Of a stretch of 64,000 bases of DNA, positions 49,740 to 53,719 are shown in pieces. The notes beneath the pieces are model-generated. The model had not been told where the DNA came from. It was given only the letters and a program-made list of their open reading frames with translations, and did not search any database. A program made the position numbers and the translations under genes. The first letter of the stretch is position 1. Each line of letters opens with the position of its first letter. This stretch comes from an uncultured Chloroflexia bacterium (GTDB lineage: Bacteria; Chloroflexota; Limnocylindria; Limnocylindrales; CSP1-4): NCBI GenBank assembly GCA_963696405.1, contig CAVOJY010000003.1, positions 262,156-326,155 on the forward strand, written 5' to 3'.

Positions 49740-50723
49740 ATGGTGAGGTCCAGCCGGCCCGGCCCCGAGCGTCCCTCACGGCCCGGCCTTGACCAGGTGG
49801 TCACCGTCCACCAGCTCAGGCTCCTCGCCGCGGTAGCCGACCGCGGGGGCGTTTCCCGGGCGGCCGAGTCGCTTGGGCTGAGCCAGCCCGCCGTGTCTCA
49901 CCAGCTCAGGACCCTGAGCGAGGCCGTCGGGGCGCCGCTGGTGGAGACCGTCGGACGCCAAGTTCACCTGACTGCCGCCGGGCAGGTCCTCTACGACCAC
50001 GCCCGCCGGATCCTCGCCGAGTTCGAGGCGGCAGGGAGCGCCCTGGACGAGTTGCGGGGCCTGCGCAGCGGCATGCTGCGCGTTGTCGGCGACACGACTG
50101 TCGGCACGTACGTTCTTCCCGATGTGCTCGGTTCGTTCCGCCACGAGCACCCCGCGATCGAGGTCCGCCTGGACGTCGGGAACCGCCAGCACGTCCTCGC
50201 CCGCCTGGTGGCAAACGAGGTCGACTTCGCGATCGGCGGACGGCCCTGGGAGGACCCGCCCGTCCCGCTCATTGTCCGGCCTTTCCTGGCCAACGAGCTC
50301 ATCGTGATCGCATCCCCGCGCCACCCGCTGGCAGGTGCCCCACGCGTCACCCTCGGGCAACTCGCCGGCGAGCCGTTCATCACGAGGGAACCTGGTTCGG
50401 GAACCCGCGAGACGGCAGAGGAGGCGTTCCATCGCGCCCACCTGTCGGTCCGACCGGTCATGGAGCTGGCCAGCAACGGCGCGATCAAGCGGGCCGTCGC
50501 CCAGGACCTGGGGTACTCGATCGTCTCACGCTATGCGGCCGCGCTCGAGCTCAGCCTTGGTCTCCTCGTCGAGCTGCGGGTTGACGGCTTCCCGCTGCTC
50601 CGCGAATGGCACCTCTTTCAGGCTCGCGACAAGCGCCTGAGCCCGGCAGCCGAGGCCTTTCTCGGTTTCGTGGTCGAGGGCCGCTGGCGGGACAACGTGG
50701 GTCGTCCCCTGGCCACGGACTGA
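49740..50723 (+). CDS. cbbR: LysR-type regulator, CbbR-like
   Basis: LysR HTH (LSQPAVSHQL), REPGSGTR, SNGAIK; directly upstream of prk-rbcLS. Confidence 0.85.
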   Translation: MVRSSRPGPERPSRPGLDQVVTVHQLRLLAAVADRGGVSRAAESLGLSQPAVSHQLRTLSEAVGAPLVETVGRQVHLTAAGQVLYDHARRILAEFEAAGSALDELRGLRSGMLRVVGDTTVGTYVLPDVLGSFRHEHPAIEVRLDVGNRQHVLARLVANEVDFAIGGRPWEDPPVPLIVRPFLANELIVIASPRHPLAGAPRVTLGQLAGEPFITREPGSGTRETAEEAFHRAHLSVRPVMELASNGAIKRAVAQDLGYSIVSRYAAALELSLGLLVELRVDGFPLLREWHLFQARDKRLSPAAEAFLGFVVEGRWRDNVGRPLATD

Positions 50724-50849
50724 GTCCCGGGCGGCTGCCTCGCGCAGGCATACTCGCCAATCGTGACGCGAAGATGCACTGGGAGGCATGTACACCATGC
50801 AAAGGATGTATTGGACCTCATGATCACCGCGCGGTAGGCTTGTCGCCTC

Positions 50850-51875
50850 ATGACCGCCGAGATCACCCCACCCGACCAGCGCCCGATCTTCGTCGCCATC
50901 GGAGGCGACAGCGGGAGCGGTAAGTCGACGCTCGCCGCCGGCTTCTACCGGATCTTCGGCGACGCCCGGATCACCACCGTGTGCCTGGACGATTACCACA
51001 GCCTGGACCGGGAGCAGCGGAAGATGGTAGGCCTTACCGCGCTCAACCCTCGGGTCAACAACTTCGCCCTGATGGAGGAGCAACTGCTGACCCTCAAGCG
51101 CGGCCGGACGGTCCGGAAGCCGGTGTACGACCACCGGGATGGAACCTTCGGTCCGCCCGAGGTCGTGGAACCGGGAGAGGTGGTGATCGTGCAGGGTCTC
51201 CACCCGTTGCTGGTGCCCGGCATCCGGGCCCTGTTCGGCCTCAGGGTCTGGCTGGATCCCGAGGAGGAACTGAAGCGCCACTGGAAAATCCAGCGCGACG
51301 TTGCCAAGCGCGGCTACACGGAGGAGCAGGTCCGCCGCGAGATCGAGCTGCGCCGGGAGGACGTCGAGGCATTCATTGCACCCCAGCGCCGCTTCGCCGA
51401 CCTCGTCGTTCGCTTCTACCGTCAGCAAGGACGCGATGACGAGCACCTCAGCGTCCGCATCACCACACGGTCGACGCTCCCGCCCATCAACCTCGAAGGG
51501 ATCCTCGACCGACCCGGGACGGGACTTCGGGTCTTCGAGCGGGAGGGCGATGAGATCACCGAGATCGACGGCGATGTCGATCGCGATACGGCGTGGGAGC
51601 TCGAGGACCGGATCTGGGAGCACATCGACAAGCGCCACCGCCACCTGCGGCACCTCGGGCCCGAGCAGTTCGGCACGTTCACGGATGAACGCCTCCGTGA
51701 GCGCCACAGTGACCCCCTCGCTTTGACGCAGCTGCTGCTCGTCCACCGGATCCTCGCGGCCGAGCGGTGGATGCTCCTCCGGGTGCCGGTCGACCAGCAC
51801 GAGTTGCTCGTGGACGACCTGGGTTCCTGCATTCCCGTGGACGAGCACGGCGGTGGCGGCCATGAGCATCCCTGA
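50850..51875 (+). CDS. prk: Phosphoribulokinase (cyanobacterial/plant type)
   Basis: GGDSGSGKST, CLDDYHSLDR, KPVYDH, WKIQRD, PQR..AD. Confidence 0.92.
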   Translation: MTAEITPPDQRPIFVAIGGDSGSGKSTLAAGFYRIFGDARITTVCLDDYHSLDREQRKMVGLTALNPRVNNFALMEEQLLTLKRGRTVRKPVYDHRDGTFGPPEVVEPGEVVIVQGLHPLLVPGIRALFGLRVWLDPEEELKRHWKIQRDVAKRGYTEEQVRREIELRREDVEAFIAPQRRFADLVVRFYRQQGRDDEHLSVRITTRSTLPPINLEGILDRPGTGLRVFEREGDEITEIDGDVDRDTAWELEDRIWEHIDKRHRHLRHLGPEQFGTFTDERLRERHSDPLALTQLLLVHRILAAERWMLLRVPVDQHELLVDDLGSCIPVDEHGGGGHEHP

Positions 51876-51920
51876 GCAGCGTGCCCCCGACCGGCCCGGT
51901 CGCTCACCCAGGAGACCACG

Positions 51921-53360
51921 ATGACTGAACCGGCCGCTCCGCTCTTCGATGCCGGCGTGAAGATGTACATGGAGACCGGGTACTGGCGCCCGGACTATGT
52001 CCCGCGCGACACCGACGTCCTCGCCGCGTTCCGCCTCACGCCCCAGGACAACGTCGCCCCGGAGGAGGCGGCAGCGGCCGTGGCCGGCGAGTCATCCACC
52101 GCGACCTGGACGACAGTGTGGACCGACCGGCTGACCGATCTCGAGCGCTACAAGGGGAAGTGTTATCGGCTCGAACCGGTCCCGGGTGAGCAGAACCAGT
52201 ACATCGCCTTCATCGCCTACGACCTCGACCTCTTCGAAGAGGGCTCGATCCCGAACCTCACCTCGTCGATCGTGGGCAACGTCTTCGGCTTCAAGGCCCT
52301 GCGGGCGCTCCGACTCGAGGACATGCGGTTCCCCGTCGCCTACCTCAAGACGTTCCCCGGACCGCCGCACGGTCTGCGCGTCGAGCGCGACAAGCTGAAC
52401 AAGTACGGCCGGCCGCTCCTGGGCGGGACGATCAAGCCGAAGCTCGGCCTCTCGGCCAGGAACTACGGCCGGGCCGTCTACGAGGGGCTGCGCGGTGGTC
52501 TCGACTTCACGAAGGACGACGAGAACATCAACTCCCAGCCGTTCATGCGCTGGCGCGACCGCTTCACCTTCGTCGCCGAGGCCATCCGCAAGGCGGAGGA
52601 CGAGACGGGCGAGCGGAAGGGCCACTTCCTCAACGTGACCGCGCCCGACATCGAGCAGATGATCGAGCGTGCGGAGTTCGCCAGGGCGTGCTCGCCGATC
52701 ATCATGGTCGACTTCCTGACCGTCGGGTTCGCCGGGCATCAGACCCTCGCGAACTGGTGCCGACGCAACGGAGTGCTCCTCCACGTCCACCGCGCGATGC
52801 ATGCGGTCATCGACCGCCAGCGCGCCCACGGGATCCACTGGCGGGTCCTCGCGAAGATGGTGCGGATGATGGGCGCCGATCAGCTGCACAACGGGACGGT
52901 CGTGGGCAAGCTCGAGGGCGACCGCGCGTCGACCGAGGCCATCAACGACCTCCTCCGGGACGATTTCGTGGCCGAGGATCGTGCCCGGGGCATCTACTTC
53001 GACCAGCCGTGGGCGTCGCTTCCCGCCGTCTTCCCGGTGGCGTCGGGCGGCATCCACGTCTGGCACATTCCGGACCTGCTGGCGATCTTCGGCGACGACG
53101 CCGTCTTCCAGTTCGGCGGCGGCACCCTCGGTCATCCCTGGGGCAGTGCCGCCGGGGCGTCGGCGAACCGCGTCGCGCTGGAGGCCGCGGTCAAGGCCCG
53201 CAACGAGGGGCGGGACCTGGTTGCCGAGAGCGCCGACATCCTTGACGCTGCCGCCCGCCATTCGCCCGAGCTGAGGGTCGCCCTCGACGTGTGGCGTGGG
53301 GTCATGTTCGAGAGTCTCGAGGCGACAGATCGCCTCGACCGAGTGGAGGCCGGGGTATGA
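51921..53360 (+). CDS. rbcL: Form I RuBisCO large subunit
   Basis: [66 protein letters not shown]. Confidence 0.98.
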
Positions 53361-53719
53361 GTCGAGGAGCGCCGACCAGGCGGGTCGAGACGTTCTCCTA
53401 CCTGCCACCCCTGACCGACGACGAGATCGGCCGGCAGGTGGACTGGATTCTCAGTCGCGGCCTCGTGCCGGCCATCGAGCACACGCTCCACCCGCGGCCG
53501 CGCGACAGCTACTGGAGCATGTGGAAGCTGCCGCTCTTCGAGGCTCGGACAGGCGCCGAAGTCCTCGGGGAGATCGCTTCCTGTCTCGAGGCGAACCCGG
53601 AGAGCTACGTCAAGGTCGTGGGCTACGACCCGCGCCTCCAGAGCCAGGTAGTCAGCCTCGTGGTCCGGCGGCCGCAACGGGGCGACCAAGGCGAGCCCGC
53701 AGGCCTGGACCAAAGCTAG
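53357..53719 (+). CDS. rbcS: RuBisCO small subunit (short, green-like)
   Basis: [28 protein letters not shown] overlap with the rbcL stop. Confidence 0.96.

What the first reader, a model, noticed from the sequence alone, without database searches (positions are those of the whole stretch)
49740..53719. Minimal cbbR-prk-rbcL-rbcS cassette with an unusual Form I RuBisCO
Seen: four co-oriented genes. RbcL keeps the catalytic set (TIKPK, KDDE, HRAMH, loop-6 GKLEG) and is translationally coupled to rbcS. It combines green-type signatures ([16 protein letters not shown], short RbcS without the red-type C-terminal hairpin) with red/basal-type ones (TATWT, WTDRLT, IMVD). Known: Chloroflexota carry deep-branching Form I clades with and without small subunits. 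Seen: no rbcX, raf1, cbbQ/O, cbbX, carboxysome, FBPase or transketolase genes in the window. Inference: an early-branching SSU-bearing Form I enzyme in a lineage usually regarded as heterotrophic, serving mixotrophy or electron disposal.
Basis: partly seen in the sequence, partly recalled or inferred. Interest (0 to 1): 0.85.

Follow-up and report, generated by a model that had tools for sequence, protein, structure and literature searches.

The report
Early-branching RuBisCO cassette, already-described type
An uncultured Chloroflexota (Limnocylindria) bacterium carries an intact four-gene CO2-fixation cassette whose RuBisCO belongs to the early-branching, small-subunit-bearing group recently named Form I Anaero / Form IF, so it is real and tidy but a new member of a kind that is already in print.

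Summary
Window 49740-53719 carries four co-oriented intact genes: a LysR/CbbR-like regulator, a cyanobacterial-type phosphoribulokinase, rbcL (479 aa, all catalytic motifs) and rbcS (120 aa), with an ATGA overlap between rbcL and rbcS. RpoB places the host in Chloroflexota, class Limnocylindria. In a careful tree, RbcL sits in a 17-row clade (support 100/99). That clade lies outside IA+IB and outside the red-type clade, in the unresolved base of small-subunit-bearing Form I, next to published Form IF members. RbcL is 75% identical to the published enzyme IF-3. This group is already named, as Form I Anaero (2022) and Form IF (2026), and five members have been characterised. RuBisCO in Limnocylindria was reported in 2021. 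The lack of chaperones and activases, and the prk-rbcL-rbcS order, are typical of the group. Local features: cbbR is co-oriented rather than divergent. The cassette lies in a variable segment between flanks that are syntenic with a family relative. No other sampled genome of the family has this RuBisCO type. The genome shows cytochrome bd, PFOR and two group 3 hydrogenases, but no FBPase, form I CO dehydrogenase, heme-copper oxidase or photosystem. That fits facultative or redox-balancing use better than classical autotrophy. Verdict: new member of a known kind, of modest interest.

The parts
49740..50723 (+). cbbR-like LysR-type regulator, 327 aa from ATG 49740. The true start may lie a few codons downstream, because relatives align from residue 17.
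   Evidence: Pfam HTH_1 and LysR_substrate. The best NCBIfam model is CbbR NF045990, but at 212 bits it is below the 450-bit cut-off. It is 58-71% identical to LysR genes next to rbcL in Limnocylindria, Dormibacterota and Chloroflexota loci. It is co-oriented with prk, whereas 14 of 15 distinct comparator loci have the regulator divergent.
50724..50849 (.). 126-nt cbbR-prk spacer, the presumed promoter and operator region of prk-rbcLS
   Evidence: Sequence. It holds short palindromes, TGTACA once and TCATGA twice. No sigma-70-like consensus was found. A function here is inferred only.
50850..51875 (+). prk, phosphoribulokinase of the cyanobacterial/archaeal (class II) type, 341 aa
   Evidence: PF00485 1.9e-44. 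NF005655 319 bits against a cut-off of 236, versus 37 bits for the proteobacterial model NF011997. Best solved relatives are cyanobacterial PRKs: 9qko 206 bits, 6gve and 6hzk 196 bits.
51921..53360 (+). rbcL, Form I RuBisCO large subunit, 479 aa; AGGAG lies 6 nt upstream of the ATG
   Evidence: Trees. It is the only RuBisCO-family gene in the genome.
53357..53719 (+). rbcS, green-type short small subunit, 120 aa, with an ATGA overlap with the rbcL stop codon
   Evidence: PF00101 1.3e-33. It is 39-46% identical to IA/IB small subunits and 31-36% to IC ones, with no red-type C-terminal extension.
53729..53766 (.). GC-rich 10-bp perfect inverted repeat (18-nt loop) between rbcS and the convergent zinc-ribbon gene. 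It may end the operon.
   Evidence: Read by eye from the sequence. It is not a canonical intrinsic terminator: it has no T-run, and the scan found none.
47553..54400 (.). Variable segment that holds the cassette, lying between flanks that are syntenic with a relative of the same family
   Evidence: Window ORFs 45966-47495 and 54474-58513 match G013 locus L142 at 1793-3047 and 14054-18181 (61-74% amino-acid identity). Nothing from 47553-54400 matches at 1e-10.

Best explanation
This is a functional CO2-fixation module. A LysR regulator (CbbR-like) probably controls a prk-rbcL-rbcS transcription unit. PRK makes ribulose-1,5-bisphosphate, and an L8S8 Form I RuBisCO carboxylates it to 3-phosphoglycerate.

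The enzyme belongs to the early-branching, small-subunit-bearing radiation published as Form I 'Anaero' / Form IF. Within that radiation it sits in its own well-supported subclade, from which none of the five enzymes characterised in the Form IF preprint comes. Like its published relatives, it probably folds without RbcX, Raf1, CbbX or CbbQO, and probably needs its small subunit for solubility.

The host is a non-phototrophic Limnocylindria bacterium with cytochrome bd, PFOR and group 3 hydrogenases. In that setting the module most likely serves facultative CO2 assimilation or redox balancing (mixotrophy) rather than obligate autotrophy. The cassette was probably gained or swapped laterally into a variable chromosomal segment.

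Shown: gene identities, intact catalytic motifs, phylogenetic position, genomic context and distribution. Inferred: oligomeric state, activity, regulation, physiological role and direction of transfer.
For: - Identity and integrity: Pfam and NCBIfam matches above cut-off for PRK and RbcL, a Pfam match for RbcS, and all catalytic motifs present. It is the only RuBisCO gene in the genome.
- Phylogeny: in the careful IQ-TREE run (LG+C20, 80 rows), the window RbcL sits in a 17-row clade at 100/99. It is excluded from the 30-row clade (100/95) that unites IA+IB, the IF-1/2-like rows and the red-type lineage. It lies in one polytomy with the IF-5-like rows and with the IF-3 + Dormibacterota clade. 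FastTree (148 rows) and a quick IQ-TREE run (75 rows) put it in the same clade, outside IA+IB and the red-type clade.
- Link to published enzymes: P0044 matches the published IF-3 at both termini and is 75.1% identical to the window RbcL. IF-5-like rows are 74-76% identical and IF-1/2-like rows 72-73%. Holding all IF anchors, the basal rows and the window RbcL together as one clade is not rejected (delta lnL 1.97, p-AU 0.469).
- Published traits of the group match this genome: no chaperones or activases, PRK present, non-phototrophic hosts, PFOR in three of five hosts. Here there are no RbcX, CbbX, CsoS2, CbbQ_C or Photo_RC hits, and four PFOR-type hits.
- Small-subunit dependence: at the four sites whose IF-5-type substitution made IF-1 depend on its small subunit, the window has T72 (the dependence state), R153 (neither state), R180 and K425 (the IF-1 states).
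- Lateral history: 0 of 137 other sampled genomes of the family have this type, and only 4 of 400 others in the class do. The cassette lies in a variable segment between syntenic flanks. cbbR has an atypical orientation.
- Assembly: contigs of relatives in independent metagenome runs bridge cbbR to prk (X4 record 27) and rbcL to rbcS (X2 record 16, X4 record 32). Short contigs 100% identical to the window occur in run X1.
- Other cycle enzymes present: two RPE genes, RpiB, a PGK-like hit, a transketolase, a weak class II aldolase hit and two PFK genes.
Against: - No activity, oligomer or expression data exist for this protein. An RNA library (X20) holds short contigs 94-99% identical in prk and rbcL, but these come from relatives and could be DNA carry-over.
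- No FBPase of class I, II or V was found. The main transketolase is split by a one-base frame change in the assembly. A closed Calvin cycle is therefore not demonstrated. The genome is only 88% complete, so absences are soft.
- My free tree does not recover Form IF as one clade. The IF-1/2-like rows fall with IA/IB and the red-type lineage. 'Form IF member' thus rests on a non-rejected constraint that I defined after seeing the tree.
- My reference set has no named ID, IE, I', I'' or I-alpha sequences. The root is two SSU-less RbcLs from relatives, on a long branch (about 3 changes per site).
- The CbbR equivalog model is not met (212 bits against a 450-bit cut-off).
- Lateral gain versus repeated loss cannot be told apart from presence and absence alone. 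The GC content of the cassette (0.675-0.694) is close to the window's 0.63-0.75 range.
Confidence: 0.72

Rival explanations
1. The cassette supports true chemolithoautotrophy. A complete Calvin cycle is driven by H2 through the two [NiFe] hydrogenases, with PPi- or ATP-PFK running in reverse, or an unseen FBPase, closing the cycle.
For: There are two [NiFe] hydrogenase large subunits: one VhuA-like at 337 bits and one sulfhydrogenase-like at 218 bits, i.e. group 3 types. There are two PFK genes of the 'mixed' ATP/PPi subfamily. PRK, RPE, RpiB, transketolase, an aldolase-like gene and a PGK-like gene are present. The genome is only 88% complete, so FBPase may simply be unassembled.
Against: Both hydrogenases score below every equivalog cut-off and resemble cytosolic bidirectional group 3 enzymes, not the group 1 or 2a uptake types usually tied to aerobic H2 autotrophy. 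No form I CoxL was found (best 115 bits against a 991-bit cut-off), no CooS/Prismane and no FBPase. No heme-copper oxidase was found, although 3 of 3 relatives have one. I did not search for sulfur, nitrite, ammonia or iron oxidation genes.
Confidence: 0.2
2. It is an ordinary green-type (IA or IB) RuBisCO recently transferred from a cyanobacterium or proteobacterium, not an early-branching form.
For: Green-type motifs are present ([33 protein letters not shown]). Identity is 68-71% to IA/IB against about 60% to IC. RbcS is green-type, and PRK is of the cyanobacterial type.
Against: IA (100/99), IB (100/99) and IA+IB (100/99) all exclude it. So does the 100/95 clade that joins them to the IF-1/2-like rows and the red-type lineage. 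The 115 non-plant proteins among the 120 best database hits listed are, where named, from Actinomycetota, Chloroflexota, Limnochordia, Rokubacteria, Calditrichaeota or a synthetic construct, not from cyanobacteria. Five Musa fusion proteins were dropped. No rbcX, ccm or cso genes were found.
Confidence: 0.03
3. The cassette does not belong to this organism: the contig was mis-binned or the assembly is chimeric.
For: The genome is a metagenome-assembled genome with 1.7% estimated contamination. No relative in the family has this RuBisCO type. The assembly carries at least one frame error.
Against: The cassette sits 52 kb into a 64-kb window of a 386-kb contig. Its flanks on both sides are syntenic with a genome of the same family at 61-74% amino-acid identity. 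GC content is even across the region. Contigs from independent runs bridge cbbR to prk and rbcL to rbcS. The CbbR is most similar (66-71%) to CbbRs of the same class.
Confidence: 0.04
4. Like the Gaiellales enzymes IF-1 and IF-2, this large subunit assembles and works without its small subunit, which only tunes rate and specificity.
For: Two of the four sites probed in IF-1 carry the IF-1 state here (R180, K425). Only 7 of 33 clade members share K at the second site.
Against: The window has T at the V71 position, and the single change V71T made IF-1 insoluble without its small subunit. The Q152 position is R here. The paper reports that IF-3, IF-4 and IF-5 all need the small subunit and that reversion is hard. 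The tight rbcL-rbcS overlap suggests co-production in matched amounts.
Confidence: 0.12

Closest known systems
Form IF RuBisCO, in particular IF-3 from a Chloroflexi MAG (Otto et al., bioRxiv 10.64898/2026.03.18.712719; I read the abstract, the Results and the sequence section, plus passages of the Introduction and Conclusion from a term search)
   Same: Both are SSU-bearing Form I enzymes from non-phototrophic Terrabacteria. PRK is present in the published hosts' genomes and lies next to rbcL here. No RbcX, Raf1, CbbX or CbbQO-type helpers are reported for the group. The small subunit is short and green-type. The window RbcL is 75.1% identical to P0044, which matches IF-3 at both termini. They share GGTIKPK, IIMVD and IHWRVLAK-type states (and reading by eye).
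   Different: The window enzyme sits in a separate 17-row clade (100/99) that contains none of the IF anchors I could place: IF-1/2-like, IF-3 and IF-5-like rows. IF-4 was not in my set. The host is Limnocylindria. cbbR is co-oriented with prk. The RbcS has a tail of about 14 residues at the C-terminus and an N-terminus about 5 residues longer than the red-type (IC) small subunits in the alignment.
Form I 'Anaero' (name attributed to Schulz et al. 2022 in a Methods passage of PMC11251275; the 2022 paper itself was not read) and the ancestral reconstruction in PDB 7QSW
   Same: 7QSW is the best solved match (801 bits). Its sequence appears as P0065 ('synthetic construct') and is 73.8% identical to the window RbcL. 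The concept is the same: small-subunit-bearing enzymes that branch before the green/red split.
   Different: 7QSW is a reconstruction, not a natural enzyme. Which ancestor it represents is recalled, not checked. In FastTree it sits at the base of IA+IB rather than with the window clade. The published group is described as coming from anaerobic thermophiles. Nothing here indicates thermophily.
Cyanobacterial Form IB and proteobacterial Form IA RuBisCO
   Same: 68-71% identity. They share green-type active-site and loop motifs, a short RbcS and a cyanobacterial-type PRK.
   Different: The window RbcL is outside the IA+IB clade (100/99). No rbcX or carboxysome genes were found. It has red-type or ancestral states at STATWT, WTDRLT and IMVD.
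SSU-less Form I-related enzymes (I', I'', I-alpha) of Chloroflexota and Limnocylindria
   Same: They occur in the same host class. In relatives G001 and G023, rbcL lies next to prk, with cbbR beside them. Both belong to the Form I lineage.
   Different: Those RbcLs are about 440 aa, 50-53% identical to the window RbcL, and have no rbcS within the 1.5-kb flanks held on each side. The window enzyme has a small subunit and the Form I C-terminal region.
Red-type (IC/IE-like) RuBisCO of other Limnocylindria
   Same: Same class, and in four genomes the same family. A cbbR 59-71% identical to the window's lies next to rbcLS.
   Different: RbcL is only 60-62% identical and falls in the IC clade (100/100). 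RbcS is 36-43% identical. No prk was seen in the 1.5-kb flanks.

Membership tests
Form I RuBisCO (L8S8) | Large subunit with both RuBisCO domains, scoring above the curated cut-off | tested here: met
   PF00016 2e-129 and PF02788 4.1e-44. NF003252 737 bits against a cut-off of 438.
Form I RuBisCO (L8S8) | Catalytic residues: the TIKPK lysines, the carbamylated Lys with Asp/Glu in KDDE, the HRAMH histidines, the loop-6 Lys in GKLEG, and GGIH / GGGT phosphate binding | tested here: met
   All are present at window RbcL positions 170, 197, 290, 329, 376 and 399, and are conserved across the reference groups.
Form I RuBisCO (L8S8) | A cognate small subunit gene next to rbcL | tested here: met
   PF00101 1.3e-33. 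ATGA overlap with rbcL.
Form I RuBisCO (L8S8) | Hexadecameric assembly and RuBP carboxylase activity | not testable with these tools
   This needs expression, SEC or mass photometry, and an activity assay.
Form IF / Form I Anaero | Branches outside IA, IB and the red-type IC/ID/IE lineage | tested here: met
   It is excluded from IA+IB (100/99) and from the red-type lineage (100/100). The red-type grade is labelled from its position and from three named IC plasmid sequences. No named ID or IE references were available.
Form IF / Form I Anaero | Forms one clade with the published IF enzymes | tested here: inconclusive
   The free tree leaves the window clade, the IF-5-like rows and the IF-3 clade in a polytomy, and puts the IF-1/2-like rows with IA/IB and the red-type lineage. 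The constrained single clade is not rejected (p-AU 0.469), but I defined that group after seeing the tree. IF-4 and the authors' reference alignment were not available.
Form IF / Form I Anaero | Host lacks known RuBisCO chaperones and activases, has PRK, and is not phototrophic | tested here: met
   No RbcX, CbbX or CsoS2 tblastn hits at 1e-6. No CbbQ_C and no Photo_RC. PRK is adjacent. Raf1, CbbO and Rca were not tested. The genome is 88% complete.
Form IA / IB (green crown) | Nested within the IA or IB clade; rbcX, ccm or cso genes as neighbours | tested here: not met
   excluded with support 100/99; no such genes.
Form IC / ID / IE (red type) | Red-type RbcL motifs (HRAGH, GGIHAGQ), RbcS with a C-terminal hairpin extension, often cbbX | tested here: not met
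   The window has HRAMH and GGIHVWH. RbcS lacks the extension. No CbbX hit. Identity to IC is 59-61%.
Form I' / I'' / I-alpha | No small subunit; shorter RbcL | tested here: not met
   rbcS is present, and RbcL is 479 aa against about 440 aa in the SSU-less relatives.
CbbR (LysR regulator of cbb operons) | LysR architecture; equivalog score; a position next to cbb genes | tested here: inconclusive
   The architecture is met. CbbR is the best-scoring NCBIfam model but falls below its cut-off (212 bits against 450). Adjacency is met, and orthologues lie next to rbcL in 15 distinct loci. DNA binding and effector response cannot be tested here.
Class II (cyanobacterial/archaeal-type) phosphoribulokinase | Scores above cut-off on the PRK subfamily model, not on the proteobacterial one | tested here: met
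   NF005655 319 bits against 236; NF011997 37 bits against 362. The best solved matches are cyanobacterial PRKs.

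The most novel reading that the evidence does not exclude
The 17-row clade that holds this enzyme may be a distinct lineage at the very base of small-subunit-bearing RuBisCO, not represented among the five enzymes characterised in the Form IF preprint. It carries a mix of ancestral (IMVD), red-like (STATWT, WTDRLT) and green-like states.

In this host it would work as a PRK-RuBisCO redox shunt rather than as part of a closed Calvin cycle. The host has only a bd oxidase, carries PFOR and group 3 hydrogenases, and shows no recognisable FBPase. 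That would be a living example of what the small subunit was first 'for' in low-oxygen, non-photosynthetic cells.

The same bacterial class also holds SSU-less and red-type enzymes, so it would offer a natural series across the steps of Form I evolution.
Probability: 0.18. Interest if true: 0.55.

Novelty: new member of a known kind. Interest (0 to 1): 0.3.

Why it matters
Early-branching small-subunit-bearing RuBisCOs are used to study how the small subunit arose and whether high specificity needs helper proteins. Some fold in E. coli without chaperones, which makes them attractive for engineering.

This cassette adds an intact, chaperone-free representative from a subclade that none of the five enzymes characterised in the Form IF preprint comes from. 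Its host class carries three different Form I lineages. It is a reasonable candidate for the kind of expression and kinetic survey already being run on this group. It does not change the current picture.

Tried and rejected
- Promoter and terminator scan of 49000-54500 found nothing. Only trivial 6-nt palindromes lie in the cbbR-prk spacer. I claim no operator.
The assembly, the transketolase frameshift and expression could not be checked directly. Parts of the stretch without cover in the four runs laid say nothing.
- The gene flanking the cassette at 54498-55625 was tried as a marker of contig ownership. It proved patchy: 62% and 53% identity in two relatives, and 33-41% paralogue-level matches elsewhere. 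I used synteny of several flanking genes instead.
- Searches of the own genome that found nothing, in a genome 88% complete: FBPase_glpX, FBPase class I and FBPase_3; Photo_RC; CbbQ_C; Prismane/CooS; COX1. Form I CoxL reached only 115 bits against a 991-bit cut-off.
- Earlier notes of this scan: nothing near this place. By sequence, only actinobacterial, plastid or betaproteobacterial RuBisCO cassettes on other genomes came up. None bore on this reading.
- The published IF-1 to IF-5 DNA sequences were not imported into any alignment or tree. I anchored them indirectly instead. IF-4 could not be anchored.
- I did not run a structure prediction or a complex prediction. RbcL-RbcS is a textbook pair that would pass by likeness to solved structures.
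- I considered and rejected a carboxysome link. The only BMC shell genes in the genome lie about 210 kb away, with an aldehyde dehydrogenase, a DeoC-type aldolase and RpiB. That is a metabolosome.
- Supplementary files of the papers are closed. The authors' trees and accession lists for Form IF / Form I Anaero could therefore not be checked against my clade.

Full report
**What is there.** The window at 49740-53719 holds four intact genes on the + strand.
- A LysR-type regulator runs from ATG 49740 to 50723 (HTH_1 1.3e-18, LysR_substrate 3.9e-51).
- A phosphoribulokinase is at 50850-51875 (PF00485 1.9e-44; NF005655 319 bits against a cut-off of 236).
- rbcL is at 51921-53360 (479 aa; PF00016 2e-129, PF02788 4.1e-44; NF003252 737 bits against 438).
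- rbcS is at 53357-53719 (120 aa; PF00101 1.3e-33).
- The spacers are 126 nt (cbbR-prk) and 45 nt (prk-rbcL, with AGGAG 6 nt before the ATG). rbcS starts inside the rbcL stop codon (ATGA), with GGAGG 7 nt upstream.
- A 10-bp GC-rich inverted repeat follows rbcS (read by eye). The consensus scan found no canonical terminator or promoter.
- This is the only RuBisCO-family gene in the 3.15-Mb, 8-contig genome, which is 88% complete.

All catalytic motifs are present. The 'mixed signature' is real. STATWT and WTDRLT are the state of 6 of 6 red-type rows. GPPHG and [11 protein letters not shown] are the state of 11 of 11 IB rows. IMVD is shared with IF-3, the IF-5-like rows, the SSU-less outgroup and some red-type rows. 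Within the enzyme's own clade, R in WTDRLT is common, so it is a clade trait. The A in STATWT occurs only in the window protein and its 97% twin, so it is a private change that happens to match the red type. RbcS is green-type: 39-46% identical to IA/IB and 31-36% to IC, without the red-type C-terminal extension. PRK is of the cyanobacterial/archaeal type.

**Who carries it.** RpoB from contig C4 is 83-86% identical to proteins named Candidatus Limnocylindrales, Limnocylindria or Chloroflexota. Every named hit among the 120 listed carries one of those names. The sister family in the order has 1.0-1.4-Mb genomes.

The contig is native to that lineage. Genes on both sides of the cassette (window 45966-47495 and 54474-58513) are syntenic with genome G013 of the same family at 61-74% amino-acid identity. 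Nothing from 47553-54400 has a counterpart there.

**Where the enzyme sits.**
- The best solved match is an ancestral reconstruction (7QSW, 801 bits). Cyanobacterial IB follows (about 765 bits), then IA and plant enzymes, then red-type enzymes (570-635 bits).
- In the protein collection the nearest natural sequences are 97% (P0003), 85% (P0005) and then 79% identical or less. Named ones come from Actinomycetota, Chloroflexota/Dehalococcoidia, Limnochorda, Carboxydochorda, Limnocylindrales, Rokubacteria and Calditrichaeota. Five Musa fusion proteins in that list were dropped from all trees.
- Among GTDB species genomes, the best hits are a Chloroflexota MAG (79%), Dormibacterota MAGs (72-74%) and two Actinomycetota MAGs (71-73%). 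Cyanobacteria follow at 69-73%.

**Trees.** I built three trees: FastTree on 148 rows, quick IQ-TREE on 75 rows and careful IQ-TREE with LG+C20 on 80 rows. References were named IB cyanobacteria, IA (Halothiobacillus, Ectothiorhodospira, a Nitrobacter plasmid) and IC (Afipia, Azoarcus and Sinorhizobium plasmids). The root was two SSU-less RbcLs from relatives of the same family.

In the careful tree, the window protein lies in a 17-row clade (100/99). A 30-row clade (100/95) that unites IA+IB (100/99), the Gaiellales-like rows and the red-type lineage (100/100) excludes it. The base of the SSU-bearing enzymes is a polytomy. It holds this clade, the Limnochorda-like rows, a clade with IF-3 and the Dormibacterota rows, and the 30-row clade.

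**This zone of the tree is already named.**
[quoted passage not shown] - The preprint 10.64898/2026.03.18.712719 characterises five Form IF enzymes, from Gaiellales (IF-1, IF-2), a Chloroflexi bacterium (IF-3), Anaerolineales (IF-4) and Limnochordaceae (IF-5). It reports about 20 known members, no chaperones or activases in the hosts, PRK in all hosts and no photosystems. IF-1 and IF-2 are active without their small subunit.

I could not import the printed sequences. Four short motifs read from them located stored proteins instead. P0044 matches IF-3 at both termini and is 75.1% identical to the window RbcL. The IF-1/2-like and IF-5-like groups are 72-76% identical.

My free tree does not make these anchors one clade. 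A tree that holds all of them, the other basal rows and the window protein together is not rejected (delta lnL 1.97, p-AU 0.469). I defined that group after seeing the tree, so this shows compatibility only. I therefore file the enzyme as a member of the published Form I Anaero/IF radiation. It sits in a subclade that holds none of the IF-1/2-like, IF-3 or IF-5-like anchors; IF-4 could not be placed.

**Distribution and history.**
- RuBisCO in Limnocylindria ('Eulabeiota'), falling into several clades, was reported in 2021 (10.1101/2021.08.23.457424, passages). That is the only paper in the library holding both 'Limnocylindr' and 'rubisco'.
- In 401 sampled genomes of the class, 17 have an RbcL at E <= 1e-50, G000 included.
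- Four others have this type: G379 at 80%, G314 at 80% (partial), G300 at 75-78% (split into two frames) and G048 at 73%. All four are in other families.
- In the window's own family, 6 of 137 other genomes have an RbcL. Four are red-type at about 61% identity and two are short at about 51%.
- For two short RbcLs of family relatives, I saw cbbR, rbcL and prk but no rbcS within the 1.5-kb flanks held on each side (L087, L088). Their best solved matches are the 457-aa SSU-less ancestral series and Form I'.
- The prk-rbcL-rbcS order recurs in related loci (L003/L123, L005, L007, L013, L131). cbbR is divergent in 14 of 15 distinct comparator loci and co-oriented only in L130 and here.
- The window's CbbR is slightly closer to CbbRs beside red-type rbcLS in its own class (66-71%) than to those beside its own RbcL type (63-64%).

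Together with the variable-segment position, this fits lateral gain or a swap of the prk-rbcLS block beside a resident regulator. Loss in relatives is not excluded, and composition gives no signal.

**How it probably works.** PRK and an L8S8 RuBisCO convert ribulose-5-phosphate and CO2 to 3-phosphoglycerate, under a CbbR-like regulator. This is inferred from the families.

At the four sites that the Form IF preprint probed in IF-1 (V71T, Q152V, R179K, K425), the window has T72, R153, R180 and K425. V71T alone made IF-1 depend on its small subunit. I therefore expect dependence on the small subunit here, with odds of roughly 7 to 1.

**Genome context for a role.**
- Present: two group 3-like [NiFe] hydrogenase large subunits; cytochrome bd; four PFOR-type hits, one in a 1305-aa open frame; two RPE genes; RpiB; a PGK-like hit; a weak class II aldolase hit; and two 'mixed'-type PFK genes.
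- Transketolase: one gene has its frame broken by one base in the assembly, and there are three shorter transketolase-N-like genes.
- Not found: FBPase classes I, II and V; form I CoxL; CooS; a heme-copper oxidase, although 3 of 3 relatives have one; photosynthetic reaction centres; RbcX, CbbX and CsoS2; and CbbQ.

With 88% completeness these absences are soft. The picture is of a low-oxygen, fermentative or H2-cycling organism. In such a cell, a PRK-RuBisCO route as a facultative carbon gain or electron sink is more likely than classical aerobic lithoautotrophy. No call tests it.

**Support from other samples.** No public run holds more than 23% of the sampled words. Of the four runs laid, one freshwater-sediment run has short contigs identical to prk and rbcL. 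Two sediment runs have contigs 92-96% identical that bridge cbbR to prk and rbcL to rbcS. One sediment RNA library has short contigs 94-99% identical in prk and rbcL. This argues against a chimeric joint. It gives only a weak hint of transcription in relatives.

**Verdict.** Locally new are the host family, the separate subclade, the co-oriented regulator and the variable-segment position. I rate it a new member of a known kind, with interest 0.3.

Noticed in passing
G000:C5:405794-407840 (locus L110, around 2125-2135); outside the window: The only full-length transketolase changes reading frame once, near C5:406425, where one extra base sits in a short C run. The two halves match Pfam Transketolase_N positions 2-212 and 212-334 in different frames. 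This is either an assembly indel or a real pseudogene, and it bears on whether the Calvin cycle can close.
   Followed up: partly
G000:C3:99534-104904 (locus L122, 7535-12905); about 210 kb upstream of the cassette, outside the window: A bacterial microcompartment locus holds RpiB, a DeoC-type aldolase, a BMC-H shell protein, two EutN/CcmL pentamer proteins and an aldehyde dehydrogenase. It looks like a sugar-phosphate-type metabolosome, not a carboxysome. That type name is recalled, not tested.
   Followed up: partly
window 49106-49714 and 49221-49400 (+); window 53777-54400 (-): Zinc-ribbon protein genes flank the cassette on both sides. The upstream one has a double zinc ribbon in one frame (from 49221). 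A Pro/Ala-rich linker plus a C-terminal CxxC..CxxC follows in another frame (ending at 49714). This suggests a second frame error or two overlapping genes.
   Followed up: no
G000 whole genome: C6:514821-516140; C3:186837-187529; C6:83939-85213; C2:72273-73418: Cytochrome bd oxidase, a PFOR-like gene in a 1305-aa open frame and two group 3-like [NiFe] hydrogenases are present. No heme-copper oxidase subunit I was found, although 3 of 3 relatives searched have one. This hints at a low-oxygen lifestyle that is unusual for the family. The genome is 88% complete.
   Followed up: partly
Loci L087 (G001) and L088 (G023); L084-L086, L125-L130; L123, L124, L131: One bacterial class holds three RuBisCO lineages. 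The first is short, SSU-less RbcL with prk and a divergent cbbR. The second is red-type rbcLS. The third is the basal SSU-bearing type. One genome (G048) has both of the last two. The 2021 preprint says the class's RuBisCOs fall into several clades. The co-occurrence in one genome was not followed up.
   Followed up: partly
Locus L131 (G300:C7:79122-83180): The rbcL of this class relative, which is of the same type as the window's, is split into two frames (query residues 8-127 and 125-476). It is either a frameshift error or a decaying gene.
   Followed up: no
Locus L006 (contig labelled Rhizobium sp. Q54 MAG): The RbcL on this contig falls inside the cyanobacterial IB clade in the FastTree. 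The contig is probably mis-binned.
   Followed up: no
Locus L142 (G013:C7), about 3100-14000: At the site where the window has the RuBisCO cassette, the relative of the same family has about 11 kb of unrelated genes. I listed the ORFs but did not annotate them.
   Followed up: no
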